Shown here piece by piece: positions 27,933-51,154 of a DNA stretch of 64,000 nt (its first letter is position 1; each line of letters starts with the position of its first letter). This stretch comes from an uncultured Candidatus Saccharibacteria bacterium. Lineage in GTDB: Bacteria; Patescibacteriota; Minisyncoccia; Phycocordibacterales; PALSA-1337. The notes beneath the pieces were generated by a model. The model worked only from the letters and a program-made list of their open reading frames with translations. It did not search any database and was not told where the DNA came from. The translations under genes were made by a program, and so were the position numbers. The stretch lies in contig CAZBVQ010000002.1 in the NCBI GenBank assembly GCA_964495685.1, positions 38,790 to 102,789 of the forward strand, written 5' to 3'.

Positions 27933-28016
27933 ATGAGCGTCGCCCGTGCCTCTCGACTACGGCGTATGGAAACATATCCTAGCGCGGAGTTATCGCTTCT
28001 GCAATAGTCACATTTG

Positions 28017-28087
28017 TCGGGGCGCCGAGAATCGAACTCGGACCTCACGCACCCGAAGCGTGTATACTACCACTATACTACGCCCCG
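28017..28087 (-). tRNA. tRNA-Pro (anticodon CGG)
   Basis: Acceptor CGGGGCG / CGCCCCG. Anticodon arm CACGC-UUCGGGU-GCGUG. T arm CCGAG-UUCGAUU-CUCGG. Unusual D arm GUAUA-GUGGUAG-UAUAC. Confidence 0.7.
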
Positions 28088-28090
28088 ATG

Positions 28091-28163
28091 TGGACCATAG
28101 CGGACTCGAACCGCTCACCTCACCCATGCCATGGGTGCGCTCTACCAGATGAGCTAATGGCCC
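28091..28163 (-). tRNA. tRNA-Ala (anticodon GGC)
   Basis: G3:U70 pair present. Anticodon arm CACCC-AUGGCAU-GGGUG. D arm GCUC / GAGC. T arm AGCGG-UUCGAGU-CCGCU. Confidence 0.75.
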
Positions 28164-28316
28164 TTCGTTGTAACAAGGCCAATCTAACACATATTTGAGT
28201 AATTTTCAAAAATAACGTAAACTTCGAAACGTACTCCTTGTAGATTCATGAGATGTGATACTCGGCACCACGTGGGCTTCGCCCGCCGAAGCTCCGAGCT
28301 TTGTGAGGAGCGAAGG

Positions 28317-28387
28317 CGGGCTGTAGTATAGTGGTAGTATACATCCATGGGGTGGATGCGGTCCGGGTTCGATTCCCGGCAGCCCGA
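28317..28387 (+). tRNA. tRNA-Pro (anticodon GGG)
   Basis: Acceptor CGGGCUG / CAGCCCG. Same unusual D arm as tRNA-Pro(CGG). Anticodon arm CAUCC-AUGGGGU-GGAUG. T arm CCGGG-UUCGAUU-CCCGG. Confidence 0.7.
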
Positions 28388-28403
28388 CAATAATACGCCC
28401 GAG

Positions 28404-28477
28404 GCACCCTTAGCTCAGTTGGCTAGAGCGCACCCTTCACACGGGTGAGGTCATAGGTTCGAGCCCTATAGGGTGCA
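28404..28477 (+). tRNA. tRNA-Val (anticodon CAC)
   Basis: Acceptor GCACCCU / AGGGUGC. D arm GCUC-AGUUGGCUA-GAGC. Anticodon arm CACCC-UUCACAC-GGGUG. T arm AUAGG-UUCGAGC-CCUAU. Confidence 0.8.
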
Positions 28478-28561
28478 CAGATATTAGACAACCACAAACC
28501 AATTCAAGACAGTATTATGGTATACTATCTTCACGGTTCGTTTATCAACTAATCAACTCCC

Positions 28562-28786
28562 ATGAAGACAACACACGTTATCGCCTTCATTCTGACGATC
28601 ATCGGTGGCCTCAATTGGCTCCTCGTTGCATTCAACTGGAACCTTGTCGATGCCATCTTCGGCGTCGGAAGTACTGGTTCGATGATCGTCTACATTCTTG
28701 TTGGTCTGTCAGCCATCTGGCTCATCATCGATCACAAGAAGAGCTGTAGCTGCTGCGTCAAAGACAGCACTCCGTCTCAGATGTAG
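28562..28786 (+). CDS. DUF378-family small membrane protein
   Basis: IIGGLNWLLVAFNWNLVDAIFG...IVYILVGLSAIW fits the DUF378 pattern. Confidence 0.6.
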   Translation: MKTTHVIAFILTIIGGLNWLLVAFNWNLVDAIFGVGSTGSMIVYILVGLSAIWLIIDHKKSCSCCVKDSTPSQM

Positions 28787-28804
28787 TCACTGCTACATAT
28801 GTAC

Positions 28805-28831
28805 AAAAAACCACCTTGCGGTGGTTTTTTG
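28805..28831 (+). terminator. Rho-independent terminator (AAAAAACCACC-TTGC-GGTGGTTTTTT)
   Basis: Perfect stem with flanking A and T runs after the DUF378 gene. Confidence 0.65.
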
Positions 28832-29006
28832 TTTGCTATTTCTGGTCACATCCGCAATCGCAGGTCTTGCCTGAGTGAGGATGATTGCATGACGAGCATA
28901 CAGGTGCATCTGCCATATGTGTAATAAAACATGAGGGCTGATAAAGCGACCTTTGGCATATTATTATACCGCGCTACACATAGAAGTGGAAGTGGGCCTA
29001 ACATCA

Positions 29007-29036
29007 AATAAAATAAGCCCTGATGGGCTTATTTTC
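29007..29036 (-). terminator. hairpin AAATAAGCCC-TGAT-GGGCTTATTT just downstream of tRNA-Ala(UGC)
   Basis: Perfect 10-bp stem flanked by A and T runs. It could act in either direction. Confidence 0.55.
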
Positions 29037-29041
29037 ATGTG

Positions 29042-29114
29042 TGGACCCGAGAGGAATCGAACCTCCGACCTTTGCTTTGCAAAAGCACTGCTCTACCAAC
29101 TGAGCTACGGGCCC
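29042..29114 (-). tRNA. tRNA-Ala (anticodon UGC)
   Basis: Acceptor GGGCCCG / CGGGUCC with G3:U70. Anticodon loop UUUGCAA. T arm GGAGG-UUCGAUU-CCUCU. Confidence 0.8.
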
Positions 29115-35269: not shown

Positions 35270-36052
35270 CTATCGAGTCAATCCCCTGACCTCTTCGACG
35301 ATCTGATCGAGTGAAGCGGCCGCTTTGACCAAGAATTTCTGTGCTCCAAGCACCTTGGCACGCTCGATATCGCTCTGTTTGTTGAGGTTGGAAAGTATCA
35401 TGGCTGGAACAGTCTTGAGACGAGGGTCCATCTTGGCCTTCTGGAGAATATCGAAACCACTCATTCCTGGCATCAAAAGATCCAAGATTATAGCATCGGG
35501 TACATGATCGGTGAGATACTGCAGTGCTTCTTGACCATTCTTGGCATGAAAGAGATCGAAGCCGGAAGCGATGAGCTTCTTGGAGAGAATACTACCGATG
35601 AGTTTGTCGTCTTCAACCCAGAGGATCTTCTTCTTTGATCCAGCATCATCGACACTATCAGACGAAGTATATCCGAAAAGTGTATTGACTCGTTTGATGA
35701 TTTCACGGCTATCAGCGTGCATATCCAGAATGAATTCTCGGACTGCACCTTGTGGTACACGAGCCATATTGATAGGTACACCTTGAGTCGAGAGCAGGAA
35801 TACAGGGATTTTAGCGAGGAGAGCTTCGGATTGTTTCTTGGCGAGAATCTGGTATCCATCCATGCCCGGCAACACAATGTCCACCAGGATGAGGTGCGGC
35901 AATGTATCGTAAATACTTTTCATGCCAGCAGTACCGTCAGTGGCAAGTGACGCACTGTAACCTTCTTTCTTGAGAGCTTCGACGACACGACCTCCGAAGA
36001 CGGCTTCGCCTTCGATAACAAGAATCTTCTCTTTCTTGGGAGTAGTTGCCAT
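35270..36052 (-). CDS. response regulator with two tandem receiver (REC) domains and no output domain
   Basis: Two CheY-like units (KILVIEGEAV...LILVDIVLPGMDG and KILWVEDDKL...AIILDLLMPGMSG). Confidence 0.75.
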   Translation of the reverse strand: MATTPKKEKILVIEGEAVFGGRVVEALKKEGYSASLATDGTAGMKSIYDTLPHLILVDIVLPGMDGYQILAKKQSEALLAKIPVFLLSTQGVPINMARVPQGAVREFILDMHADSREIIKRVNTLFGYTSSDSVDDAGSKKKILWVEDDKLIGSILSKKLIASGFDLFHAKNGQEALQYLTDHVPDAIILDLLMPGMSGFDILQKAKMDPRLKTVPAMILSNLNKQSDIERAKVLGAQKFLVKAAASLDQIVEEVRGLTR

Positions 36053-36095
36053 GTATATAGTCTATCACATATGCTAGACTCACCTATACACATCC

Positions 36096-36177
36096 GCCGG
36101 GGTGGTGAAATTGGTAGACACGCATGCCTTAGGAGCATGTAGAGCAATCTGTGGAGGTTCGAGTCCTCTCCCCGGCA
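36096..36177 (+). tRNA. tRNA-Leu (anticodon UAG), type II with a long variable arm
   Basis: Acceptor GCCGGGG / CCCCGGC. 3-bp D stem. Anticodon arm CAUGC-CUUAGGA-GCAUG. T arm GGAGG-UUCGAGU-CCUCU. Confidence 0.8.
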
Positions 36178-36308
36178 CATGAGCGAAGCGAATGGCAAGA
36201 GCAAGACACCTGCGTGTCTTGCGGGAGAAGGACTCGAAAAGGCTGAGTATATTTCTGAGGAGCTTTGCTCCGAAGAAATACGAAGCCTGTACTGCGCCTG
36301 TAAGGCGA

Positions 36309-36327
36309 GAGTCCTCTCCCCGGCACA
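36309..36327 (+). repeat. 19-bp perfect direct repeat of the tRNA-Leu 3' end (GAGTCCTCTCCCCGGCACA), 129 bp downstream of the tRNA
   Basis: Identical to 36161-36179. The region between contains no tRNA 5' half. Confidence 0.85.
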
Positions 36328-36331
36328 AACA

Positions 36332-37087
36332 CTACTTCCTCGAATCCCCCTTTATGGTGGCAATCGCCTCCTGCACCGTCGTCATGAATTGTGCAGGGAA
36401 AATAATAGTTGAGTTCTTCTCAGTAGCAATCTCCGCCATGGTCTGAAGTGTGCGTAGCTGGAGAGCGACTGGATGTTGAGCGATAAGATCAGCTGCTTCA
36501 CCGAGCTTCCGTGCAGCCTGGAATTCACCTTCTGCCGCCACGATCTTGGCACGACGTTCACGTTCTGCTTCTGCTTCCTTGGCCATAGCGCGCTGCATGT
36601 TGTCAGGAAGAACAATGTCTTTGATTTCGACAGCAGTCACTTGTGCGCCCCACGGTTCGGTATGAGCATCGATGACATCTTTGATCTGTACATTGATATC
36701 TGCAGTCTGTGACAAAAGCTGATCAAGTGAAAATCGTCCAACAATGTTACGCACCGTTGTCTGACTGATCTGATTGACCGCATCATAAACATTCTCGATG
36801 GCCACCACTGACTTTTGCGGATCTACGATATGGTAATACGCGACGGCAGCAATATCGATAGAGACGTTGTCCTTCGTAATGATTTTCTGCGAAGGAATAT
36901 TCATAGTGATCGTACGCAAAGTGACCTTGGTCATACGCTCGAATATCGGCACCAGAATAATGAGTCCTGGACCACGCACGCCCGTACACTTGCCGAGGAA
37001 GAAGATAACGCCGCGATCATACTCCTTTACTACTTTGAGTGATAATGCAAGGAGAATGATGACGACTACAATGATGGTATATAGCAT
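36332..37087 (-). CDS. SPFH/band-7 (stomatin/HflC-like) membrane protein
   Basis: N-terminal TM segment, SPFH core, and a coiled-coil tail ([22 protein letters not shown]). Confidence 0.85.
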
Positions 37088-37108
37088 AAATAGAGTATAG
37101 CGCGTTTT

Positions 37109-37639
37109 TTATTTTCCGCCAGACTCGAAATCTTGTGTCATTTTGAAAGTCACTTTCCCTCTCAATTTGCCACCCAAGCCTTTGGACTCTATGGATGACA
37201 TAGCTGCATAAAGATCCAGTAATGCCTCGGGCGACTTGTCGAGTTTGTATCTATTAAGTGTATAGCCATTTTTGAGATACTCTCGCAATACACCAGTAGC
37301 CCAGATGCGGAACTGGGTAGCCTTCTTTGAATTGACGCGGTAGCCGACGGCGATGATAGCATCGAGGTTGTAGCATTCAATTTGGCGTTTTACGGTTCTA
37401 CCACCCTCTTTTTGAACTTGTTCCAAAATGGAACAAGTTGAATTTTTTATTAATTCACCTTCTCCATATATATTCTGAAGATGCTTAGTTATAGCTTGTG
37501 AGTTTACATCAAATAATTCTGCTATCTGTCCCTGCGTCGCCCAAATCGTATCCTTCTCCACATCAGCTCGTAATTCTATATTCCCATCCTTACCTTCATA
37601 GATAATAATGTTATTCTTTGTGATCGTCTTTGTATTCAT
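37109..37639 (-). CDS. RhuM-family protein, N-terminal portion only (possibly a truncated remnant)
   Basis: ATQFRIWATGVLREYLKNGY is the RhuM-family signature. The ORF is about half the length of typical family members. Confidence 0.55.
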   Translation of the reverse strand: MNTKTITKNNIIIYEGKDGNIELRADVEKDTIWATQGQIAELFDVNSQAITKHLQNIYGEGELIKNSTCSILEQVQKEGGRTVKRQIECYNLDAIIAVGYRVNSKKATQFRIWATGVLREYLKNGYTLNRYKLDKSPEALLDLYAAMSSIESKGLGGKLRGKVTFKMTQDFESGGK

Positions 37640-37873
37640 AGTACTTTAAATTAACTAATAAAAAAACCTGATGACGTATGTATCATCAAGTATTTGTGTG
37701 TATTGAGGAGGAATTTCAGGTGGGAGAGCCGTTAAAAAGTTAGTTGATTAATGCATGAATTATATCACGGCTTTCGAAAAATTCCGGCTAGTTCAAATTT
37801 ACTGTTATTTCTAGTCACTCCCCAAAGCGACATACACCGGCGGAATCACTGATGGGCTTTGGGTGGTCTAAAC

Positions 37874-37898
37874 AAAAATCGGCCCGAGGCCGATTTTT
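37874..37898. terminator. perfect bidirectional terminator hairpin AAAAATCGGCC-CGA-GGCCGATTTTT
   Basis: 11-bp perfect stem with symmetric A and T runs between two minus-strand genes. Confidence 0.65.
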
Positions 37899-38090
37899 GT
37901 AATTTACCTTCTACTCTTCTTTGAAGTTTTTTTCTTTTTAGAAGATCCTTTCTTTTTCGTAGCCTTTTTCTTTTTTGCCATATATGTGGAGAAAATGTTA
38001 TTAAGGTCGACAGCCTTTAATTGATATGTAAATTATTGTATCACACATCCATTGAAAACAATCTTACTTTTTAAAATAAAATTTAATTTA

Positions 38091-38729
38091 TTATTTTTTT
38101 AACGCACTAAATTTATACTCCCACCCCGGCTGCCACTTGAACTTCGTGATCACCAACGTCTCTAGCGGCACCCCATTCACCACATGCTCAATACCATACT
38201 GCGTCGCACGATGACCGATCACCATGACACGCTTGCCTTGATAGTTCTTGATCAAATCCTCCAAGAATGACCTCATGCGCGCCGTCGTCTGCGTGTAGCT
38301 CTCACCGTTTGGAAATGGTGTCTCGATGCGCTTCGGCTTCTCCACATCCACCTGCTCGCTTGGCGCCTGCGTCAGATCGCCATAGTTACATTCACGAAGC
38401 CGGGCGTCCTGAATAATCGGCCATTTGGAACCAAAACCAATCTCGGCACTCTTGTATGCCCGCTGTAGATCCGAGCAGAAAATAGCGTCGAAGTGGTCTT
38501 CCTTGTAACGTTCTCCCATTTCCTTGGATTGCTGAATACCGAGAGGCGACAAGGCTACGTCATTGTGGCCAGATGACAAATGGGCTTCGTTATCAAATGT
38601 GGTGCCGTGAGCTTCGAAGATGAGGGTGAGTATGGGTGTAGGATAGTGTGATTTGAGGCTTATTTCTAGGCCTGTTTTTTGATATTGACAATATACTATA
38701 TTATATGTTAACATGTTATTGGCGGTCAA
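38091..38729 (-). CDS. histidine phosphatase (phosphoglycerate-mutase-like) family protein
   Basis: HGTT...SPLG...GHRATQ pattern, with the catalytic RHG replaced by AHG. It has an unusual 30-aa N-terminal extension that contains a half-copy (TCTAGGCCTG, 38655-38664) of the palindromic repeat. Confidence 0.6.
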   Translation of the reverse strand: MTANNMLTYNIVYCQYQKTGLEISLKSHYPTPILTLIFEAHGTTFDNEAHLSSGHNDVALSPLGIQQSKEMGERYKEDHFDAIFCSDLQRAYKSAEIGFGSKWPIIQDARLRECNYGDLTQAPSEQVDVEKPKRIETPFPNGESYTQTTARMRSFLEDLIKNYQGKRVMVIGHRATQYGIEHVVNGVPLETLVITKFKWQPGWEYKFSALKK

Positions 38730-38752
38730 ACATTCAAAACTGGAACGAAACT

Positions 38753-39250
38753 ATGAAAAGATTGAAAATCCTTGTGTTCGATGACAACGAAAATCATCGT
38801 AAAGCTGCCGGTGCGCAGCTCGGAAAGAAGCACGACTTGGAGGTTGTCGGGACCTACCGTGAAGCGGAGAAAGCCCTCGAGAATTTCGACGGCAAAACCA
38901 AGCTCTTCGACGCCGTTCTCACTGACTTACTCGTCCCCCCATCGGACCGGTCACAAACCACTCCAACACATGCTGGACAGGAAATGCCGATCGGGGTCTT
39001 CATCGGCCTCGCCGCGGCGGTCAACGCTGGTGCGAAACATGTCGTTGTTTTTACTGACATGAATCACCATAATCACCCGGCCTCGGCGTGCCTCGACCCG
39101 TTCGGGCGCACCCCATTCATGGTGAACGGCTGCAAGGTGGTCTTCAGCAATTCGCCAAATTGGATGTGCGAGCACAAAGGCCAGACAGTCAAAAACTGGG
39201 CCCACGCGCTTGAGTACATCCTCAAGACCCCGGCAAAAACTGGATCGTGA
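38753..39250 (+). CDS. receiver (CheY-like) domain protein, atypical
   Basis: KILVFDDNENHRKAAGAQL...FDAVLTDLLVPP resembles an REC fold. No output domain. Confidence 0.4.
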   Translation: MKRLKILVFDDNENHRKAAGAQLGKKHDLEVVGTYREAEKALENFDGKTKLFDAVLTDLLVPPSDRSQTTPTHAGQEMPIGVFIGLAAAVNAGAKHVVVFTDMNHHNHPASACLDPFGRTPFMVNGCKVVFSNSPNWMCEHKGQTVKNWAHALEYILKTPAKTGS

Positions 39251-39332
39251 CACAACGTCACACGAGCCGAAAGTGCTCATCACAAAACTTTTCACCCCGC
39301 CTGGCGCACTGCCGAGCGGGGTTTTTACTTAC

Positions 39333-39821
39333 TTATTTTTTCAGTAAAGCATCCCTTAGATTAGCAATTAACGTCATCTTTCCTCTGTTATCAGACAAGA
39401 GATAACCAGCATATTTCAACTCATTAAAACGACCATGCGCAACATGATTTCTAAGATCTTGGACCTGTCGCATAAGCTTAATAAATGGATCATTTTTCTC
39501 GGTATGCAATTCCTCAATAATTTTAATTTTTTCACCGAAATGAAGTTTTGAAATTATTATTTCCATAGCTTCTTTACGTGCACCCACATAAACTTCTGGT
39601 TCAATAATCAGTGATTCCGCTTCCCGCTCAACGAAATATGCAATCCAGAATACAAAATCAACCGCATCAAATTGATCATTTGATAATGAGAACCGCTCGC
39701 GCACCATTTTTTTAGCAATGTCTTTTTCGAGGCCACTAAAATCAATTCCATACTTGGCAGCGAACTTAATCAAGTCTGCAGGATTTCCATCTACAATTTT
39801 CTTTAATTCCTCTTCTGTCAT
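39333..39821 (-). CDS. hypothetical protein with a C-terminal HEPN-like R-x4-H motif (LRNHVAHGRF, HepT/DUF86-like)
   Basis: Motif read directly. The ORF start overlaps the uvrB 3' end by about 56 nt. An internal ATG at 39707 (MVRERF) would avoid the overlap. Confidence 0.35.
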   Translation of the reverse strand: MTEEELKKIVDGNPADLIKFAAKYGIDFSGLEKDIAKKMVRERFSLSNDQFDAVDFVFWIAYFVEREAESLIIEPEVYVGARKEAMEIIISKLHFGEKIKIIEELHTEKNDPFIKLMRQVQDLRNHVAHGRFNELKYAGYLLSDNRGKMTLIANLRDALLKK

Positions 39822-41913
39822 TTTTTAAGCTATTATTTCTCTTCCCCACCCCCTTCTCCTTCTTAGCCTTTTTTACTTCAGCAGCACTCCTCCTCTCCAA
39901 CTCAATCAACTCATCCCGTATAAGTGCCGCCGTCTCGAAATCCAACATCTTCACCGCCTCCTCCATAGCCTCCTGCTTCTGCTTCATCAGCAACTTGGGA
40001 TTGGTGCGCGCCAGTTCTTCATCGAGCTTCACGAGCTCATTCACGGCCTTATCATGCTCGGTGCGCAACTGATCGGTAATATCATGAATGGCCTTCTTGA
40101 TGGTCTGGGGGGTGATGCCATGCTCAGTATTGTAGGCAATTTGGAGAGCTCGTCGACGGTTGGTCTCCTTGATGGCATTGTCCATGGAGCCGGTGAGGTT
40201 GTCGGCATAAAGGATGACACGACCAGCAGCGTTACGAGCGGCACGACCGATGGTCTGGATGAGTGAAGTTTCGGAGCGCAGGAATCCTTCCTTGTCAGCA
40301 TCGAGGATACCGATGAGCGACACCTCGGGCAGGTCGAGTCCTTCACGCAGGAGATTGACGCCGACGAGGATGTCGTACTTCCCTTTGCGGAAATCGGTGA
40401 GAATAGTGATGCGCTCGATGGTCTTGACGTCACTGTGGAGATAGGCGGCCTTGATGTTTTTCTCCTTGAGAAACTCAGAAAGATCCTCGGCCATTTTCTT
40501 GGTCAAGGTCGTCGCCAAGACACGATCACCTTTGGCGATGGTCTTCTCCGCTTCATCGATGAAGTCGAAGATTTGACCTTTGTAATTGCCAGACTCCCGT
40601 ATCGGTCGTATCTCGACGATAGGATCAGTGAGCCCCGTCGGACGAATGACTTGCTCTGCCACCTGCTTACTCATTTCCTTCTCATACTTCCCTGGTGTCG
40701 CTGAGGTAAAAATCATCGGACCCACACGCTCCAAGAATTCATCGAACTTGAGTGGTCGGTTATCTTTTGCACTCGGCAGACGGAATCCATGTTCCACCAA
40801 CGTATTCTTGCGCGATGCATCACCGGCATACATACCATTGAGTTGCGGAATGGTCACATGCGATTCATCGACAATGGTGAGGAAGTCCGCCACCATCTTG
40901 CCTGTCTTGGGATCTTTCTTTTTAGGGAAATAGGACAGAAGCGTATCTGGTGGTTCGCCCGGCATCATTCCCGAGAAATGACGTGAGTAGTTCTCGATAC
41001 CGTTGGTGTAGCCAATTTCTTTGATCATCGAGAGATCGTACTTCACGCGGCGCTTGAGGCGCTCGGCTTCGAGCATCTTGCCAGCTTTCTCAAGCTCTTT
41101 GAGTCGCGCGACCAATTCTGCCTGAATAGTTTTGTACGCACGCTCACTCTGCTCATCAGTCGAGATGAAGTGCTTGGCCGGAAATATGAAAACGGTTTCG
41201 TGAGTGGCGCGTACCGATCGTGAGACTGGATCAAGTTCAGTGATAGTAGAAATGGCACTGCCTTCATATTCCAGACGATAAATAGTCTTCTCATTCACCG
41301 GCATAATCTCGATAGTATTACCGATGGCACGGAAATTGCCCGAATTGACATCGGCCGTGGTGCGCTCGAAATGAATGTCGATGAGTTTACGGATAAGTTC
41401 GGCACGCGAGAGTTCCATGCCAACTTTGAGTTTGAGATTCACTTTCTCGTATTCTTCAGGACTACCCAAACCATATATGCAAGAAACCGATGCCACGATG
41501 ATGACATCTTTCCTGGTGAGAAGTGCCTGCGTCGATGCGTGGCGCAATCGCTCGATCTCCTCGTTGATCATGGCCTCCTTTTCTATGTACGTATCGCTGG
41601 AAGGAATGTAAGCCTCAGGCTGATAGTAGTCATAGTACGAAACGAAGTAATGCACGGCATTGTTGGGGAAAAATTCGCGGTACTCCTGGGCGAGCTGAGC
41701 TGCCAGCGTCTTGTTGTGAGCAATGACGAGTGTTGGTTTGCCATACTGCGCGATGACATTGGCGGCGGTGAATGTTTTGCCGGAGCCGGTCACGCCGAGG
41801 AGGGTCTGCGGATCAAGACCCTTTTTGAGCCCCTCCACCAACGCAGAAATAGCCCGAGGCTGATCGCCGGCGGGTGTGAGGGTGGTTGCGAGTTTGAAGG
41901 GTGAAGAGCTCAT
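39766..41913 (-). CDS. uvrB: excinuclease ABC subunit B
   Basis: TPAGDQPRAI, GVTGSGKTFT Walker A, helicase motifs, and a C-terminal UVR motif (FETAALIRDELIELE) followed by a basic tail of about 45 aa. Start set at MSSSPFKL. Confidence 0.95.
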   Translation of the reverse strand: MSSSPFKLATTLTPAGDQPRAISALVEGLKKGLDPQTLLGVTGSGKTFTAANVIAQYGKPTLVIAHNKTLAAQLAQEYREFFPNNAVHYFVSYYDYYQPEAYIPSSDTYIEKEAMINEEIERLRHASTQALLTRKDVIIVASVSCIYGLGSPEEYEKVNLKLKVGMELSRAELIRKLIDIHFERTTADVNSGNFRAIGNTIEIMPVNEKTIYRLEYEGSAISTITELDPVSRSVRATHETVFIFPAKHFISTDEQSERAYKTIQAELVARLKELEKAGKMLEAERLKRRVKYDLSMIKEIGYTNGIENYSRHFSGMMPGEPPDTLLSYFPKKKDPKTGKMVADFLTIVDESHVTIPQLNGMYAGDASRKNTLVEHGFRLPSAKDNRPLKFDEFLERVGPMIFTSATPGKYEKEMSKQVAEQVIRPTGLTDPIVEIRPIRESGNYKGQIFDFIDEAEKTIAKGDRVLATTLTKKMAEDLSEFLKEKNIKAAYLHSDVKTIERITILTDFRKGKYDILVGVNLLREGLDLPEVSLIGILDADKEGFLRSETSLIQTIGRAARNAAGRVILYADNLTGSMDNAIKETNRRRALQIAYNTEHGITPQTIKKAIHDITDQLRTEHDKAVNELVKLDEELARTNPKLLMKQKQEAMEEAVKMLDFETAALIRDELIELERRSAAEVKKAKKEKGVGKRNNSLKNDRRGIKENCRWKSCRLD

Positions 41914-42490: not shown

Positions 42491-42533
42491 AGCGCATCGT
42501 CCCCTCCCGGGCGGTGCGCTGGTTTTTTATATC
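42491..42533 (+). terminator. terminator module AGCGCATCGTCCCCTCCCGGGCGGTGCGCTGGTTTTTTATATC (copy 1)
   Basis: Stem GCGCAUCG / CGGUGCGC with a T-run. An almost identical copy is at 43066-43108. Confidence 0.6.
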
Positions 42534-42625: not shown

Positions 42626-43054
42626 ATGAAAAGATCACAGCTCATCCTCACTATGGGTGGCCCTATGCCAGTCGAAAGTCTCAGCAACTTGTGCAGTGCC
42701 CTGATGACCATCATGAGTGCAACTGAGGAATGGCTTGAGGGGTGCGCGTCCACCGATTCATCAATGACCATAATCTGGCAGGTGGTCGCCAAAAGACCCG
42801 GCGCCGCAAGTTGCCAAGTATTTATCACTGAGCTATCTGGCTCGTGCATCTTGGGCAATTTGAGTCAGTATGGACAACACGCGCTATCCACTTCTGAACG
42901 TGTCGTCCTGGCCACTCATGGATTCGAGATCACCAACATGAAAGCGGCACCAGGTAAAACTTCGGCAAGCACTGGAATCGGCGAAAAGCTTACCGCCCAA
43001 AAACTTGCTGATATTCTCAATGCACAAGTCCTTAAGAAAAAATATGCTTCCTAG
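42626..43054 (+). CDS. hypothetical protein
   Basis: 142 aa ORF followed by the duplicated terminator module. No SD and no family. Weak. Confidence 0.3.
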   Translation: MKRSQLILTMGGPMPVESLSNLCSALMTIMSATEEWLEGCASTDSSMTIIWQVVAKRPGAASCQVFITELSGSCILGNLSQYGQHALSTSERVVLATHGFEITNMKAAPGKTSASTGIGEKLTAQKLADILNAQVLKKKYAS

Positions 43055-43065
43055 ACGCGTCCATC

Positions 43066-43108
43066 AAGCGCATCGTTCCCTCCCGGGCGGTGCGCTGGTT
43101 TTTTATAT
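43066..43108 (+). terminator. terminator module (copy 2, one mismatch relative to copy 1)
   Basis: AGCGCATCGTTCCCTCCCGGGCGGTGCGCTGGTTTTTTATATC. Confidence 0.6.
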
Positions 43109-43263
43109 CCCGCTTCGCTTCCTCCTCCGCTAAAGCTACAGAGGACAAGCAAGTTTCGCAGGACAAACAAAAAACCGCGCGCCATTCCAGAAATTCTGGA
43201 GTTGCGGCGCGCGGAATCAAGTCGCCATCGGCGGATCACGGTCCGCCATTAATAGCGACAAAA

Positions 43264-47536: not shown

Positions 47537-48004
47537 TTATTCAATCGCATCTATCTGTTCAATCCGTCTCTGGTGTCTCTCATCTCCACTGAAAGGTGTA
47601 CTCAACCAAACTCCCACAGCATCACATGCTCCATCTGCATCGACATATCGCGCACCTATGGAAAGTACATTGGCATCATTGTGCTCGCGTGACTTCTTCA
47701 GGATATCCTGATCCCCACCATACCAGACCGCAGCACGGACTCCGGGGAAGCGATTGGCGACCATGGCTTCACCCTGCCCTGATGCACCGAAAATGATGGC
47801 TTTGGTATTCCCGGTAATATCTTCGGCGACTTTGAGCGCAGCGGCCGACATGAAAACGGGATAATCATCGCCGTCTACCAGCTCATGCGCCCCCACGTCG
47901 AGAACGGTGTACATATCTGCATGTTCACGTGCCAGAAATGCTTTGACGGCTTCTTTGGCGGCGAAACCAGCGTGATCGGAGGCGAGGATGATAGTGGTGT
48001 TCAT
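47537..48004 (-). CDS. rpiB: ribose-5-phosphate isomerase B
   Basis: MNTTIILASDHAGF and an RpiB/LacAB fold of 155 aa. Confidence 0.88.
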   Translation of the reverse strand: MNTTIILASDHAGFAAKEAVKAFLAREHADMYTVLDVGAHELVDGDDYPVFMSAAALKVAEDITGNTKAIIFGASGQGEAMVANRFPGVRAAVWYGGDQDILKKSREHNDANVLSIGARYVDADGACDAVGVWLSTPFSGDERHQRRIEQIDAIE

Positions 48005-48103
48005 GCCCCTATCTTAGCACACTAGTTTTCTTTTTGTTCACCAACTAATAGAGCCCCCGAGACGATCGTCACAGCAAGCATTCCAGGCGTAGCTACCTAT
48101 AAC

Positions 48104-48478
48104 CTATTGATTTGGATACCTAACATTTGAAGTAGACGTATCATTCACATAAACTGTCGCTGGTTTTTCTAGTCGATTACAACGTCTGCCGAGAGATAAT
48201 TGCAGATCGCAATTAGTACCGAAAACATATACGGCTCCAACTGATACCAGAATAATTACTACAAATGTCACGCTTCTAATCGTGAGACTCTGAATAGCGA
48301 AAATCAAATGACCGATAAGCCAGGCCAAAAATAAAGCCAGAAACGGTGACAACAAGAATACTGGTATCAAAAACTCTCCACCATCTGTTACTTGGTCCGA
48401 GATAAGAATCAAAACAACCGCACTGAGAGCAAAAGCTGGTAACAAACCAATAACTACTCGCTTAAAGATATTTGTCAT
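48104..48478 (-). CDS. hypothetical multi-TM membrane protein
   Basis: 124 aa, hydrophobic. Preceded by conserved leader element copy 1. Confidence 0.45.
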   Translation of the reverse strand: MTNIFKRVVIGLLPAFALSAVVLILISDQVTDGGEFLIPVFLLSPFLALFLAWLIGHLIFAIQSLTIRSVTFVVIILVSVGAVYVFGTNCDLQLSLGRRCNRLEKPATVYVNDTSTSNVRYPNQ

Positions 48479-48483
48479 GTTTT

Positions 48484-48562
48484 TTAATTATTACACTAAC
48501 CTCCCCGCTCTGATCACCTGCCCCACCACTGTATACATGTACCCATCTCATTATCACGTTAG
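48484..48562 (-). promoter_or_regulatory. conserved leader element, copy 1 (in gene orientation: ...GTATAC..GTGG.GCA.GTGATCA.AGCGGGGAG.TTA...TAATAATTAA then ATG)
   Basis: About 80% identical to 49469-49547 over roughly 50 nt. Contains TGATCA and GTATAC palindromes. Confidence 0.5.
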
Positions 48563-48566
48563 AACT

Positions 48567-49466
48567 TTATCTCGTAATGGTGAAATACTTATCACTCGTA
48601 TCGACAATGCCTCTTCCTCCTCCATAATTTGTCACCCCAATTTCTATTTTATAGTTACCTGGAGAAAGGCTGAATCTGTCCTCGGGCAAACTCGATGTCT
48701 TACCTATACACATAGTAGTCGCAGGAGTAAAAATAAAGACTCCTTGTTTCGCTGAAACTTCTCCATCAACAGGATCACAGAAATCAGAGAAGTCTGTCCC
48801 CGATCTAAGTCTGATAGCAACTTTGGCGTCATTAGATAAACCCGATGATGTCCACTTGATCGATTTTGATTCAGACATTTTCCAGATCTCTCCGCCATTA
48901 GGAGAAATAATGGTTATGGAAGGGACTGAAACAGGCTGTGTCACGGGACTATTAGTCGTCTCACTTACTTTAGGTTGAGCTGAGATTGTAAACAGCTCGC
49001 TCTTATTCCCTACCCCCACAATTTCTCCAGTTGAATAAAGACCTATGCGATATTTACCAGGCTGTACAACTCCTTGAACTTCGTCGCCTTGAATAATCCA
49101 GCTAAACGAGCCTGAGTTTGGCGATCCTTGAGAAATTTTTCGAACCGTATTGCCATTCTGGTCAATAAGATTAATGCCAATCCCTGCCGTATTAATGTCC
49201 ATTCCCAATCCACTGGAATTCCAATTAATCTTCAAATTGTCTCCAATTTTATATGTCTCTCCGTTTTTCGGCGAAGTAATCATAATTGAAGGCGAAGCAG
49301 CTGGTTGTGATGTTACTGAGGCATCATCAGTTTGATTAACTTGGGGTTGCTGTTGGTCAATACTTACTGATTTTTTAATAAATGCAAAATAACCGACAGC
49401 AACTAAAAGAACAATTATAAGTACAATCAACCAAATATTTACTGATCCCTTTTGTGTATTCTTCAT
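48567..49466 (-). CDS. secreted/anchored protein with two tandem beta-sandwich-like repeats
   Basis: N-terminal TM segment. Repeat units ITSPKNGETYKIGDNLKINWNSSG...GKYRIGLYS...ELFTI and IISPNGGEIWKMSESKSIKWTSSG...GNYKIEIGV...KYFTI. Confidence 0.5.
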   Translation of the reverse strand: MKNTQKGSVNIWLIVLIIVLLVAVGYFAFIKKSVSIDQQQPQVNQTDDASVTSQPAASPSIMITSPKNGETYKIGDNLKINWNSSGLGMDINTAGIGINLIDQNGNTVRKISQGSPNSGSFSWIIQGDEVQGVVQPGKYRIGLYSTGEIVGVGNKSELFTISAQPKVSETTNSPVTQPVSVPSITIISPNGGEIWKMSESKSIKWTSSGLSNDAKVAIRLRSGTDFSDFCDPVDGEVSAKQGVFIFTPATTMCIGKTSSLPEDRFSLSPGNYKIEIGVTNYGGGRGIVDTSDKYFTITR

Positions 49467-49468
49467 AA

Positions 49469-49547
49469 ATTTAAATTATTAAATTAATCTCCCCGCCTTG
49501 ATCACATGCTCCACAAGCGTATACGTATACCCCATTTCGTTGTTATA
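49469..49547 (-). promoter_or_regulatory. conserved leader element, copy 2
   Basis: See copy 1. It lies immediately upstream of the ATG at 49466. Confidence 0.5.
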
Positions 49548-49768
49548 CCATGCGGGTAATTTTTCCCTGTTTTTTGTCATATTGCAGAAATTATATCATG
49601 AGTTCAATCTTTAAATCTCCGTTCGCCCGTCTTTTGAAACAGCAAAAATTTGTAGTCTCAAAAGGCGAGCGAGAGATAAAATATGCTGTCAATGTTCTTG
49701 CTTTACATGATAAACAAACACTTGTTTAATAGCAAGCGCTGAAATATGGCCTGAACACTGCTTAATTC

Positions 49769-50740
49769 CTAGCAATGAACAGCTCTTGTTCTTGGAATCT
49801 TGTATTTCTTGTGTCTCTGGTTTCTTGGTACATTTCTGAAGGAATCGTAACGACGCTGGAGATCGGGACCGGTCATCATCGTATAAATCATCGAACTCTC
49901 AAGACTTGAGTGACCGAGAATATTTGAAACGTCTGAATTTGATCCGCCCTTGTTCACAATATCTCGACCCATATAATGTCGCATTGAGTGCGCATTCATT
50001 GTTGGTATACCAGCACGGTTAGAATTAGTGCGGAGCATTTCAGCCACGTTGAAGGTGGTCATTCTTTTTCCTCTCACATCATTCTGACCACACTTTGAAA
50101 CTGTAACAAATAGCGCATCGAGGTCTTCAAAGCTAAATAGTTTATATAAATGTTTTCTCTTGCTTACCCACTTTTTGAGGAGAGCATTTGTGGTTGGTGT
50201 CCAAAAAATTTCACGAATCGGTCTACGACCGCGTGATTTTTCTGTGCGTATGAGCGCTTTGCGATTATCCAAATCAAGATCGCCAACATTTAAAGAAACG
50301 ATCTCGCCGTTTCGAGCGCCCGTATCCCAGAGTAATGATATGACTGCCCTGTTTCTAATGTGATGAGGATTATTACCCTTTGGAATAGAGTTAAGTAATT
50401 TTTTGAAACCTTGTTCAGTTGCAATTCGAGGTATGTTGTACTCTTTCTTGGGGGTTGGAATAAGAAATTCATTAATAACTTTAAAGCCTTGAAGGTTATA
50501 AAATTCAAAGAATTTCTTGAGGGCCAAGGTGACAATACGAATGCCGTTTCTTTTCCAGCCGAGCTCTGTCATCAAATTCAAATAATCCATCACGTGCTGA
50601 ATAGTGATGTTTTCTATATGCGGATTTTTGAGATAGAGACAAAAGATGCGAAGCACTTTGTCGTATCGTTTGACCGTATGACCGGTCACTTTGATCTGTC
50701 TCCAACCGCTGAATTGGTCGATAGCGTCTTTGAATAGCAT
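49769..50740 (-). CDS. tyrosine-type site-specific recombinase/integrase
   Basis: C-terminal catalytic region AHSMRHYMG...LGHSSLESSMIYT (R..H..R..Y residues) and an N-terminal SAM-like domain. Confidence 0.85.
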   Translation of the reverse strand: MLFKDAIDQFSGWRQIKVTGHTVKRYDKVLRIFCLYLKNPHIENITIQHVMDYLNLMTELGWKRNGIRIVTLALKKFFEFYNLQGFKVINEFLIPTPKKEYNIPRIATEQGFKKLLNSIPKGNNPHHIRNRAVISLLWDTGARNGEIVSLNVGDLDLDNRKALIRTEKSRGRRPIREIFWTPTTNALLKKWVSKRKHLYKLFSFEDLDALFVTVSKCGQNDVRGKRMTTFNVAEMLRTNSNRAGIPTMNAHSMRHYMGRDIVNKGGSNSDVSNILGHSSLESSMIYTMMTGPDLQRRYDSFRNVPRNQRHKKYKIPRTRAVHC

Positions 50741-51154
50741 ACATGGCCAACCAAAAAGCCCACTCGATGCTACTCAAAGTGGACTTCTGGTGGCCGTCTG
50801 CTCATAGAGCTTATTGCCATTCCCTAGCTAGGGAGACATAACCTCGCGGTCACATCATCAACATTTTCCCCTATCCTTTAGGAAATAGCAAGGTCATGTT
50901 TTGATCAAAAGTCCATCGGTAGCATCAGGTCATTCTGACCCTGATCCCTTACGGGGCGATGGAGCATATTCGGTTGTCACTACATCCTAGTGTAGTGCCT
51001 TTCCATTGTCAAGAAGGATATTTCATTGGATAGTAATATGGAGAGCAGAACATCAAAATAGTCAATTAAAATAAGGCTTTTTTGAGATATATAAAGAAAA
51101 GTCACATCACCTTTTAAGCAATGCGACTGTGTTTTTCGGAAAATGATCTATTTG

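What the first reader, a model, noticed from the sequence alone, without database searches (positions are those of the whole stretch)
36096..36327. Duplicated tRNA-Leu 3' end (19-bp perfect direct repeat), an att-site-like scar next to an accessory island
The last 19 nt of tRNA-Leu(UAG) (GAGTCCTCTCCCCGGCACA, 36161-36179) recur perfectly at 36309-36327. No 5' tRNA half lies between them. Integrative elements that target tRNA 3' ends leave exactly this signature (attL/attR). The adjacent region up to uvrB carries accessory-type genes (SPFH protein, truncated RhuM, atypical histidine phosphatase, REC-like protein, HEPN-like ORF). A tyrosine integrase is present elsewhere in the window at 49769-50740.
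Basis: partly seen in the sequence, partly recalled or inferred. Interest (0 to 1): 0.55.

Follow-up and report, generated by a model that had tools for sequence, protein, structure and literature searches.

The report
Structured module that copies tRNA ends
The repeated 19 bases are real, but they do not mark the edge of the neighbouring gene island: they close a tightly folded, non-coding module of about 150 bases that sits behind tRNA genes in many Patescibacteria, always ends in a copy of a tRNA 3' tail (nearly always that of the tRNA it follows), and appears to be undescribed.

Summary
GAGTCCTCTCCCCGGCACA occurs exactly twice, at 36161-36179 (the tRNA-Leu 3' end) and at 36309-36327.

The stretch from tRNA-Leu to uvrB is a variable, probably exchanged island, but the two copies bracket 129 nt, not the island, and no third copy exists.

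The spacer plus copy 2 is a conserved structured module. It comprises a GCGAAGC mini-hairpin, a palindromic hairpin, an antisense copy of the tRNA T-arm strand, and a three-way junction closed by copy 2.

One metagenome scan found the same architecture behind tRNA-Leu in many contigs, singly or in tandem. A covariance model then found it behind tRNA-Ala and tRNA-Lys, where the terminal copy and its antisense partner match that tRNA instead. In 12 distinct copies 95.6% of positions pair, and 22 of 29 pairs show compensatory changes.

There is no Rfam, phage, plasmid or literature match, and no recombinase gene lies nearby.

My best reading (about 0.45) is a miniature, protein-less module that inserts or duplicates at tRNA 3' ends. 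The main rival (about 0.3) is a co-transcribed tRNA-like or switch RNA.

The parts
36046..36075 (+). Promoter-like site for tRNA-Leu (TTGCCA-18-TATGCT); the TATGCT region is conserved in relatives
   Evidence: Consensus scan; the alignment with L006, L007 and L009 shows CATATGCTACACTCAA conserved. It is a consensus match only.
36096..36177 (+). tRNA-Leu(UAG) gene; CCA is not encoded
   Evidence: ARAGORN; Rfam tRNA, 57.2 bits.
36161..36179 (+). Copy 1 of the 19-mer: T-loop GAGU, T-stem 3' strand, acceptor 3' strand, discriminator, plus CA
36180..36200 (+). Spacer L0 with the conserved motif GAGCGAAGCGA. It contains the mini-hairpin GCGAAGC at 36183-36189. It is followed by a decayed complement of the acceptor 3' strand (ATGGCAAGAGC), which is P0-3' in other members.
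   Evidence: The motif recurs after the tRNA or copy in L090, L103, L111, L115, L129, L159, L162, L208 and L006, with a GCGAAGC to ACGAAGT compensation.
36201..36222 (+). HP1: a 9-bp hairpin, GCAAGACAC-CTGC-GTGTCTTGC. Its sequence varies between members but the pairing is always kept.
   Evidence: in alignment A3, 7 of 9 pairs show changes on both sides.
36223..36235 (+). P1 5' strand, GGGAGAAGGACTC: the inverted (antisense) copy of GAGTCCTCTCCC. It can pair with copy 2 to close the three-way junction, or with copy 1 in the tRNA.
   Evidence: Folds; complementarity table; it covaries with tRNA type.
36236..36240 (+). Junction GAAAA, invariant across type-A members
   Evidence: Alignments A4 and A6.
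36241..36287 (+). P2: a long hairpin with a tandem GA/GA internal loop and an AU bulge
   Evidence: 10 of 13 pairs show double changes.
36288..36293 (+). Junction TGTACT (consensus TRTAC)
   Evidence: Alignments A4 and A6.
36294..36308 (+). P3: a short hairpin with a GTA triloop (consensus Y-GTA-R)
   Evidence: 5 of 6 pairs show double changes.
36309..36327 (+). Copy 2 of the 19-mer. Positions 36309-36320 form the 3' strand of closing helix P1.
   Evidence: covariance-model hit at 36224-36326, 117 bits.
36332..39821 (-). Context, not part of the module: the accessory stretch between the module and uvrB. It holds SPFH 36332-37087, a short RhuM-N protein 37109-37639, His_Phos_1 38091-38729, a REC-like ORF 38705-39250 (+ strand) and a 162-aa ORF 39333-39821.
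   Evidence: Pfam; synteny; GC dips to 0.38-0.41 at 37000-38500; mosaic identity.

Best explanation
What is shown. Copy 2 is the last segment of a module of about 150 nt (36180-327) inserted directly behind tRNA-Leu. In order, the module holds a spacer with a GCGAAGC mini-hairpin, a palindromic hairpin (HP1), and an antisense copy of the tRNA's T-loop/T-stem 3' strand (P1-5'). In better-preserved members it also has an antisense copy of the acceptor 3' strand (P0-3') just before HP1. Two conserved hairpins (P2, P3) follow, and then a direct copy of the last 19-25 nt of the tRNA. P1-5' pairs with that terminal copy to close a three-way junction. It is equally complementary to the tRNA's own end. 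The module belongs to a family found behind tRNA-Leu, -Lys, -Ala and -Val genes in Patescibacteria-type contigs, singly or in tandem. There are at least four interior designs. In almost every case the terminal copy and its antisense partner match the tRNA in front.

What is inferred (my commitment). It is a miniature, protein-less, tRNA-3'-end-specific insertion and duplication module. It enters at the T-loop-to-3'-end segment of a tRNA gene by a reaction that regenerates or duplicates that segment: either site-specific recombination with a core identical to the tRNA end, or staggered-cut insertion. Each event therefore leaves the tRNA intact and adds one unit ending in a tRNA-end copy. New units push older ones outward, giving arrays, and old units decay. 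Folded as a single strand, the module rebuilds a double-stranded image of its target (P3, P1 and P0 stacked, with HP1 and P2 as branches). This is how integron attC sites and the CTX-phage attP present their recombination sites, so a host recombinase acting in trans is the likeliest engine. Because it lies inside the tRNA transcription unit, it is probably also transcribed.
For: Family and structure. One metagenome scan gave 120 loci, of which 11 carry 2-3 copies of the tRNA end 99-168 nt apart. The type-A units share architecture and motifs. RNAalifold found compensatory changes in 21 of 41 pairs from only 6 sequences. In 12 distinct covariance-model-aligned copies, 95.6% of cells pair and 22 of 29 pairs show double changes, against 35-47% paired when partners are slid.

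Matching to the tRNA. Behind tRNA-Ala (L161) the end copy is GAATCCTCTCGGGTCCAC and the antisense is AGAGGATTC. Behind tRNA-Lys (L111) the end copy is GATCCCTACTGGGCGGAC and the antisense is GTAGGGATC. Scanning 280 tRNAs found further interior types behind Lys, Leu(UAA) and Val(UAC), each with the host tRNA's own end.

Behaviour typical of mobile or selfish DNA. Distribution among relatives is patchy: the window has the module at tRNA-Leu but not at tRNA-Ala, and L161/L009 show the reverse. Tandem arrays of identical units occur in L159 and L208, and a mixed type-B plus type-A array in L184. Truncated or decayed units occur in L006, L129, L096 and L162, and L161 holds a Leu-type relic. Leu-type units sit behind tRNA-Val in L208, joined at the microhomology GCACAAAA.

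Hints of DNA-level constraint. Of the paired positions in A6, 318 are Watson-Crick, against 5 G.U and 1 A.C. GNA-triloop mini-hairpins and perfectly palindromic HP1s are present. A terminator lies between the tRNA and the module body in L161, L131 and L178. The fold is as significant with DNA parameters, z = -6.4.
Against: No recombinase, transposase, reverse transcriptase or Cas1 gene was detected near any module. This rests on Pfam scans of 56 ORFs within about 4.5 kb, for which only the 25 most frequent of 74 matched families were listed, and full result tables for 20 of the ORFs adjacent to modules; several of those have no Pfam match. No homologue of the window's integrase occurs in those loci.

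No clean filled-versus-empty pair with alignable flanks was found, and no excised or circular form was seen. The motif was not found in IMG/VR, INPHARED phages or PLSDB plasmids.

Copy number per genome looks low: one in this 64-kb window.

The three-way-junction core is better preserved than the acceptor-antisense part. Its unpaired nucleotides (GAAAA, TRTAC, tandem GA) are strongly conserved. Both fit selection on a resident RNA as well as, or better than, selection for mobility.

In most loci no terminator separates the tRNA from the module, and in L103 and L159 a terminator follows the module, so it is probably co-transcribed.
Confidence: 0.45

Rival explanations
1. The module is a structured non-coding RNA made as part of the tRNA transcript. 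One version is a tRNA-like molecule. It would have an acceptor-like stem (P0-3' paired with the copy's acceptor strand), HP1 in place of the D and anticodon arms, and an extended T-stem (P1) whose loop carries P2 and P3. RNase P, RNase Z and the CCA-adding enzyme would cut it out like a tandem tRNA. The other version is a competing-helix switch. The antisense strand P1-5' can trap the tRNA's 3' half, or be captured by the module's own decoy copy when the three-way junction is stabilised, for example by a ligand or protein. That would gate tRNA maturation.
For: The module always has the same orientation and lies immediately 3' of a tRNA. A promoter-like site lies upstream, and no terminator lies between tRNA and module in the window or in most loci; in L103 and L159 the terminator follows the module. 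In L111 the module sits between tRNA-Lys and tRNA-Leu. Junction nucleotides are conserved and tandem G.A pairs are present, both typical of folded RNAs. The core three-way junction is kept at 95.6% pairing while flanking parts decay. The need for two strands to pair with one antisense segment neatly explains why the decoy must equal the tRNA end and why it switches with tRNA type. Acceptor-like closure is perfect in L115, L111, L202 and L098-Lys.
Against: Leu-type units behind tRNA-Val (L208) cannot pair with that tRNA. A terminator precedes the module body in L161, L131 and L178. Presence is patchy, and arrays of identical units and many truncated relics occur, which is unlike a needed RNA gene. 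At least four unrelated interiors share only the end-copy logic. Almost no G.U pairs are seen: 5 among the roughly 340 paired positions. The acceptor-like stem is poor in the window itself, about 3 of 7 pairs. There is no T-loop. Nothing matches in Rfam.
Confidence: 0.3
2. This is the first reader's reading: a passive attL/attR scar. A large integrase-bearing element once sat between the two copies, or the copies mark the edge of the present island. Deletion then left 129 nt of arm sequence.
For: The identity block runs from the T-loop to just past the tRNA end, as at T-loop-class att sites (established knowledge). The adjacent region is a variable island with a separate history. Contigs of three assemblies break inside this tRNA. 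Partial-tRNA repeats inside tRNA-linked islands are known (preprint 10.1101/2020.12.28.424599).
Against: The same cargo-less unit, with the same parts in the same order, recurs in many unrelated contigs and behind other tRNAs. Independent deletions would not reproduce that. Its helices covary, so the structure is under selection. No copy lies at the island's far end. There is no integrase remnant between or beside the copies.
Confidence: 0.08
3. The match is chance, or the spacer is just a pair of ordinary terminator hairpins for the convergent tRNA-Leu and SPFH genes.
For: The genes converge, the SPFH stop lies 4 nt from copy 2, and strong hairpins are present.
Against: A 19-nt exact repeat is expected 0.01 times. 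No hairpin is followed by a T-run, and the scan finds no terminator here. The sequence family is conserved far beyond this gene pair.
Confidence: 0.02

Closest known systems
tRNA-targeted integrative elements and their att repeats (phage, ICE and genomic-island attL/attR; tycheposon islands with several partial-tRNA repeats)
   Same: There is a direct repeat of the tRNA 3' segment starting in the T-loop. The tRNA stays intact. Successive units stack outward from the tRNA, and decayed older units are present. The location is an island hotspot (preprint 10.1101/2020.12.28.424599).
   Different: The unit between repeats is 100-180 nt, has no gene and no integrase, and is itself conserved and structured. 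It also carries an inverted copy of the core.
Folded single-strand recombination sites: integron attC and CTX-phage attP(+)
   Same: An imperfect intramolecular helix rebuilds the recombination site from inverted repeats. It has extrahelical branches and a variable terminal structure. Structure is more conserved than sequence. Arrays grow at one fixed site, and the recombinase acts in trans (established knowledge; anatomy).
   Different: There are no R/L boxes (no GTTRRRY) and no intI. The target is a tRNA gene end rather than attI or dif, and the 'cassette' has no cargo. No recombination has been shown.
tRNA-like processing modules in RNA: plant mitochondrial t-elements, MALAT1 mascRNA, the tmRNA tRNA-like domain, bacterial YrlA
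   Same: The topology is acceptor strand, then body, then T-stem, then acceptor 3' strand plus discriminator. It lies in a tRNA transcription unit. It ends exactly where a tRNA ends, including CCA where the tRNA gene encodes it (L131, L178).
   Different: There is no T-loop and no D-arm, and the T-stem is extended to about 10 bp and capped by a three-way junction. The acceptor-like stem is often decayed. ARAGORN and the Rfam tRNA/tmRNA models do not see it.
Riboswitch-type three-way-junction aptamers with a P1 switching helix
   Same: A three-way junction has conserved junction nucleotides and covarying stems. One strand of its P1 has an alternative partner.
   Different: No ligand, no downstream gene and no Rfam match. 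The alternative partner is a tRNA, which has not been described for a riboswitch.
MITEs and REP/BIME-type structured repeats
   Same: Small, non-coding, highly self-complementary, and dependent on a trans-acting enzyme.
   Different: There are no terminal inverted repeats with a short target duplication, copy number is not high, and the module is strictly tied to tRNA 3' ends in one orientation.

Membership tests
attL/attR of a tRNA-integrating element | Direct repeat identical to the 3' part of the tRNA gene | tested here: met
   A 19-nt exact repeat, expected 0.01 times.
attL/attR of a tRNA-integrating element | The repeats bracket the mobile element, with an integrase gene or its remnant beside one repeat | tested here: not met
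   129 nt lie between the copies, with no credible ORF. The nearest tyrosine recombinase is 13.4 kb away and Xer-like. No copy lies at the island's far end.
attL/attR of a tRNA-integrating element | Relatives show the empty site, with the tRNA followed directly by the distal flank | tested here: inconclusive
   L007 and L009 have tRNA-Leu without a second copy, and L006 has only a decayed left part. Their downstream flanks are unrelated, so no precise empty site is available.
attL/attR scar (passive remnant) | The intervening sequence is lineage-specific debris that is not conserved elsewhere | tested here: not met
   The same architecture, with covariation, occurs in many contigs and behind other tRNAs.
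Integron attC | R''/R' core sites (RYYYAAC ... GTTRRRY) at the base of the hairpin | tested here: not met
   Read directly from the sequence at 36156-36335: no GTTRRRY. The helix is made of tRNA T-arm sequence.
Integron attC | Linked intI gene and attI site | tested here: not met
   No recombinase was detected within about 4.5 kb of modules (the listing is partial and several adjacent ORFs have no Pfam match). The window's recombinase scores 45.8 bits against a cut-off of 265 for integron integrase.
Integron attC / CTX attP (works-like) | A single strand folds so that inverted repeats rebuild a duplex recombination site with extrahelical features | tested here: met
   P0-3' and P1-5' are complementary to the whole 22-nt tRNA end and are split by HP1 (L202 13+9 nt, L111, L103). 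In the window only the P1 part survives, 13 nt with one bulge. Recombination itself is not testable here.
Any Rfam family (tRNA, tmRNA, ribozymes, riboswitches, Y RNA) | Covariance-model score at or near the gathering threshold | tested here: not met
   At the gathering threshold the window gives only tRNAs. With E up to 10 on 36050-36400, only the tRNA and a chance sX4 hit appear, the latter at 11.9 bits against a threshold of 70.
tRNA-like structure / t-element | Acceptor stem plus discriminator at the 3' end | tested here: inconclusive
   Perfect in L115, L111, L202 and L098-Lys; partial in L103, L159 and L208; about 3 of 7 pairs in the window; absent in L149 and L184u2.
tRNA-like structure / t-element | T-arm with a T-loop | tested here: not met
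   The T-loop is replaced by the P2/P3 junction, and ARAGORN calls nothing there.
tRNA-like structure / t-element | Cleavage by RNase P or RNase Z, and CCA addition | not testable with these tools
   This needs RNA end-mapping or enzyme assays.
MITE | Terminal inverted repeats flanked by a short target-site duplication, with many dispersed copies | tested here: not met
   One copy in 64 kb, found only behind tRNAs, with a 19-25-nt repeat and no terminal inverted repeats.
Intrinsic terminator | GC-rich hairpin followed by a T-run | tested here: not met
   The scan finds none between the tRNA and SPFH, and none of the hairpins has a T-tail.

The most novel reading that the evidence does not exclude
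A previously unrecognised class of protein-less, self-folding genetic modules that copy the 3' end of whichever tRNA gene they follow. One possibility is cargo-less 'cassettes' that fold as single-stranded DNA into a mimic of the tRNA gene end and are inserted by a host Xer-type recombinase, which would be an integron-like system whose attI is a tRNA gene. The other is an RNA switch in which an antisense strand toggles between the tRNA's 3' half and a decoy copy, gating tRNA maturation.
Probability: 0.3. Interest if true: 0.85.

Novelty: new variant of a known kind. Interest (0 to 1): 0.68.

Why it matters
Duplicated tRNA ends are routinely read as scars of integrases and used to delimit genomic islands. 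Here that reading would draw the wrong boundary. It would also miss a conserved element family with at least four interior designs that is tied to tRNA genes in Patescibacteria, a phylum with tiny genomes where conserved non-coding structure is unexpected.

If the modules are mobile, they are a minimal, cargo-less, tRNA-specific insertion system that works without its own enzyme, and a natural example of target mimicry by folding. If they are RNAs, they are a new tRNA-linked structured RNA class, possibly acting on tRNA maturation.

Either way they are directly testable, and they should be masked or modelled in tRNA-fragment, island and att-site annotation.

Tried and rejected
1. Third copy of the 19-mer near uvrB or the integrase: none with up to 3 mismatches, or up to 6 of 24.

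2. Known RNA family: nothing in Rfam. Hammerhead-type junction motifs were compared by eye and do not fit.

3. Phage or plasmid origin: the 19-mer, the closing-helix pattern and a conserved internal motif are absent from IMG/VR. A first, looser motif scan gave only chance hits, none with the downstream motif. There was no BLAST hit in INPHARED phages or PLSDB plasmids.

4. Linked enzyme: no homologue of the window's integrase lies in module loci. No recombinase, transposase, reverse transcriptase or Cas1 was detected among nearby ORFs, which are housekeeping genes, T4SS pilins and ComEA-like proteins where they have any match.

5. Filled-versus-empty site pairs: flanks of module-bearing loci were BLASTed against all held tRNA-Leu loci, and the tRNA-Ala regions of the window and L161 were aligned. 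No alignable empty site was found.

6. Small ORF 36179-36412: it overlaps SPFH antisense and is not conserved, so it was rejected by inspection.

7. tRNA intron, split tRNA or permuted tRNA readings: rejected because the tRNA is complete without the module.

8. Retron, group II intron, TnpB guide RNA or bridge RNA analogies: considered and rejected for lack of any partner gene, and because the putative 'guide' equals the upstream flank rather than the downstream flank.

9. Literature: five full-text searches found no description of such modules.
Full report
OBSERVATION. The 19-mer GAGTCCTCTCCCCGGCACA occurs exactly twice in the window, at 36161-36179 and 36309-36327 on the + strand. No further copy appears even with 3 mismatches, and shuffles expect 0.01 matches. 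Copy 1 is the 3' end of tRNA-Leu(UAG) at 36096-36177. Nothing tRNA-like lies between the copies. A looser search (24-mer, up to 6 substitutions) finds only the T-arm of tRNA-Ala elsewhere.

THE ISLAND. The genome is a Taylorbacteria-like member of the Patescibacteria, judging by the names of the closest MAGs. I mapped the window's proteins onto 20 related loci. The more distant relatives have uvrB directly beside the double-REC response regulator (RR), with no tRNA between them. Relatives with RR at 74% identity or more carry tRNA-Leu(UAG) beside RR, followed by different cargo before uvrB. That cargo is an IS3-type transposase in L007; a PG-binding protein, a short RhuM and a methyltransferase in L006; and a methyltransferase plus unknowns in L009.

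GC content dips to 0.38-0.41 at 37000-38500. Contigs from other samples are mosaics:
- L087 is 5-10% diverged in RR but identical from 35900 to 37442.
- L085 is identical over 36149-38400 and nearly so over 38900-40000, but about 7% diverged in uvrB.
- L088 is about 25% diverged in RR, where it is 100% identical to L004, a different species-level MAG. From the tRNA through SPFH and RhuM it is identical to the window.

Three assemblies break inside this tRNA. One caveat applies: joins at an 83-nt conserved tRNA could be assembly chimeras. The 19-mer pair does not bracket this island.

THE SPACER IS A STRUCTURE. The stretch 36178-36335 folds at -67 kcal/mol, against -43 +/- 4 for shuffles (z = -6.0). 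The other strand gives z = -7.0, and DNA parameters give z = -6.4. The fold has three parts:
- a hairpin, HP1, at 36201-36222;
- a long closing helix, P1, in which GGGAGAAGGACTC (36223-36235) pairs with GAGTCCTCTCCC, the first 12 nt of copy 2;
- two enclosed hairpins, P2 (36241-36287) and P3 (36294-36308).

Copy 2 is therefore one strand of a helix. The module also contains an inverted copy of the tRNA's T-arm strand.

THE SAME MODULE ELSEWHERE. Eleven of them have 2-3 copies spaced 99-168 nt apart. Their spacers share the window's layout, in this order:
- a motif near GARCGAAGYGA;
- a hairpin of variable sequence;
- GAGAGGACTC-GAAAAGG;
- a long hairpin flanked by GA/GA;
- TRTAC;
- a short hairpin with a GTA loop;
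- the tRNA-end copy.

Six sequences already give 21 compensated pairs out of 41. A covariance model built from them found more members. In 12 distinct aligned copies, 95.6% of cells pair and 22 of 29 pairs have changes on both sides. Sliding the partners by 1-3 columns drops pairing to 35-47%.

THE KEY RESULT. The model also found members behind other tRNAs:
- Behind tRNA-Ala(UGC) in L161 the module ends in GAATCCTCTCGGGTCCAC, that tRNA's own end, and its antisense strand is AGAGGATTC.
- Behind tRNA-Lys(CUU) in L111 it ends in GATCCCTACTGGGCGGAC, with antisense GTAGGGATC.

A scan of all 280 tRNAs in the held loci found further modules with different interiors behind Lys, Leu(UAA), Val(UAC) and Leu(UAG), each ending in its host tRNA's end. 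Type B shares the GGACTCGAAAG start and the three-way-junction plan but has a long P3. At least two more interior types exist. The end copy is therefore a designed feature of a family, not an accident at this locus.

FULL ANATOMY. In well-preserved members, the segment just before HP1 is the complement of the tRNA's acceptor 3' strand plus trailer. An example is L202, where ATTTGTCCGCCCG faces CGGGCGGACAAAT. The module thus holds an inverted copy of the whole 22-nt tRNA end, split by HP1. That antisense can pair with the upstream tRNA, or with the module's own terminal copy. In the second case the unit has tRNA-like topology: an acceptor-like stem, HP1 where the D and anticodon arms would be, and an extended T-stem capped by P2 and P3. 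In the window this acceptor part has decayed to about 3 of 7 pairs, and only P1 survives.

The spacer loop carries GCGAAGC-type mini-hairpins that covary (GCGAAGC to ACGAAGT). P3 has a GNA triloop. HP1 is often a perfect palindrome. Of the paired positions in the aligned set, 318 are Watson-Crick, 5 are G.U and 1 is A.C.

DYNAMICS.
- Presence is patchy. The window has a module at tRNA-Leu but none at tRNA-Ala. The related L161/L009 genome has one at tRNA-Ala and none at tRNA-Leu.
- Arrays occur: identical units in L159 and L208, and type B followed by type A in L184.
- Relics occur. L006 keeps only the left part before a T-run. L129 and L162 have truncated units. L096 has a decayed end plus fragments of a second unit. 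L161 has a Leu-type antisense relic in front of its Ala-type unit.
- In L208, Leu-type units sit behind tRNA-Val, joined at the microhomology GCACAAAA.

CONTEXT. The genes near modules are housekeeping genes: topoisomerase I, IF-2, RbfA, ParB, MiaA, ribosomal proteins and Asp/Lys/Asn-type tRNA synthetase. T4SS pilins and ComEA-like proteins also occur, and several adjacent ORFs have no Pfam match. No recombinase, transposase, reverse transcriptase or Cas1 was detected, although the 56-ORF summary listed only the 25 most frequent of 74 families. No homologue of the window's recombinase occurs there, and that recombinase is Xer-like.

The module is absent from IMG/VR, INPHARED and PLSDB, from Rfam and from the searchable literature.

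In the window a promoter-like site precedes the tRNA, and no terminator separates it from the module or from the convergent SPFH gene. Elsewhere terminators follow the module (L103, L159) or lie between the tRNA and the module body (L161, L131, L178).

INTERPRETATION. Shown: copy 2 belongs to a conserved, covarying, tRNA-matched structured module. Inferred: how it works.

I favour a miniature, protein-less insertion and duplication module specific for tRNA 3' ends (about 0.45). The patchy distribution, the homo- and heterotypic arrays, the relics, the off-target units at tRNA-Val and the several interiors sharing only the end-copy logic all behave like selfish DNA. The near-absence of wobble pairs, the DNA-type mini-hairpins and the palindromes fit a DNA-level fold that rebuilds a duplex image of the target, as in integron attC and CTX-phage attP. 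Each insertion would regenerate or duplicate the T-loop-to-3'-end segment, which explains the repeat.

The main rival (about 0.3) is a co-transcribed RNA, either a tRNA-like processed species or a competing-helix switch in which the antisense strand toggles between the tRNA and a decoy copy. It is favoured by the conserved junction nucleotides, by the better preservation of the junction than of the flanks, and by the module's position inside the tRNA transcription unit. It is weakened by L208, by the interposed terminators and by the relics.

A passive scar of a large element (about 0.08) and chance or terminator hairpins (about 0.02) are essentially excluded.

COMPARISON AND NOVELTY. The module works most like a tRNA-targeted integrative element shrunk to its att region, and like folded single-strand recombination sites. 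It fails the defining tests for membership in each:
- no integrase or bracketed cargo, so it is not a standard attL/attR pair;
- no R/L boxes or intI, so it is not an attC;
- no T-loop, so it is not a tRNA-like structure by the usual criteria;
- no terminal inverted repeats with a target-site duplication and no high copy number, so it is not a MITE.

I rate it a new variant of a known kind, with a real chance (about 0.3) that it is a new class. Interest: 0.68.

Noticed in passing
window 42491-42533 and 43067-43109: Two 43-nt terminator-like hairpins (AGCGCATCGTCCCCTCCCGGGCGGTGCGCTGGTTTTTTATATC) are 98% identical and lie in direct orientation 576 nt apart. They flank the 142-aa ORF at 42626-43054, just beyond uvrB. 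Both also match L085 and L086.
   Followed up: no
window 48000-50800: A low-GC patch (0.38-0.41) holds a Xer-like tyrosine recombinase at 49769-50740. Its best NCBIfam match is XerA/XerC/XerD-type, below all cut-offs. Two ORFs without family matches lie beside it. It may be a separate small mobile region or simply the housekeeping Xer gene.
   Followed up: partly
window 37905-37982 (- strand): A tiny lysine-rich ORF (about 25 aa, MAKKKKATKKKGSSKKKK...) lies in the AT-rich gap of the island. It overlaps an 18-nt-period repeat of TCTTTTT-type units (repeat family D1; sequence).
   Followed up: no
window 37109-37639 and L006 2745-3269: The 'truncated RhuM' is probably not a pseudogene. A 174-aa homologue in L006 (61% identity) covers the same first 69 positions of the 252-position Pfam model, so a short RhuM-N-domain protein is conserved.
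   Followed up: partly
L088 (JGI 3300045396), L004: The RR side of L088 is 100% identical to MAG L004, a different species with RR at 84% amino-acid identity to the window. From the tRNA through SPFH and RhuM, L088 is 100% identical to the window. Either the island with its module moved very recently between species, or the assembly is chimeric at the conserved tRNA.
   Followed up: partly
L098 3334-3520: A different kind of duplication occurs behind tRNA-Leu. The last 41 nt (variable arm, T-arm and acceptor strand) recur 102 nt downstream, and a type-B module then follows the second copy.
   Followed up: no
L144 (tRNA-Leu UAA), L204 (tRNA-Val UAC), L106 (tRNA-Leu UAG), L173 (tRNA-Leu UAA): Further module types have unrelated interiors. 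One example is GGGGTCGGGAA..TTCCC..ATTGAAA..TTTCAAGG..GCGRRGCGACG, shared by L144 and L204. Each ends in a 15-18-nt or longer copy of its own tRNA's 3' end. In L144 and L204 the GCGRA-GCGRA motif lies just before the copy rather than after it.
   Followed up: partly
L007 39-1297: An IS3-family transposase pair (HTH_Tnp_2 plus rve) sits directly downstream of the orthologous tRNA-Leu in a relative. This shows the same spot also takes ordinary insertion sequences.
   Followed up: no
L131 4729-5259 and L178 1406-1930: In two type-B loci the gene immediately upstream of tRNA-Leu is a ComEA-like helix-hairpin-helix DNA-binding protein, which is part of the competence DNA-uptake machinery. This may be coincidence.
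   Followed up: no
window 28016-29114: A cluster of six tRNA genes (Pro, Ala, Pro, Val, Ala) is arranged as an inverted pair of blocks; arms 28014-28087 and 28317-28390 are 82% complementary. None carries a module.
   Followed up: no
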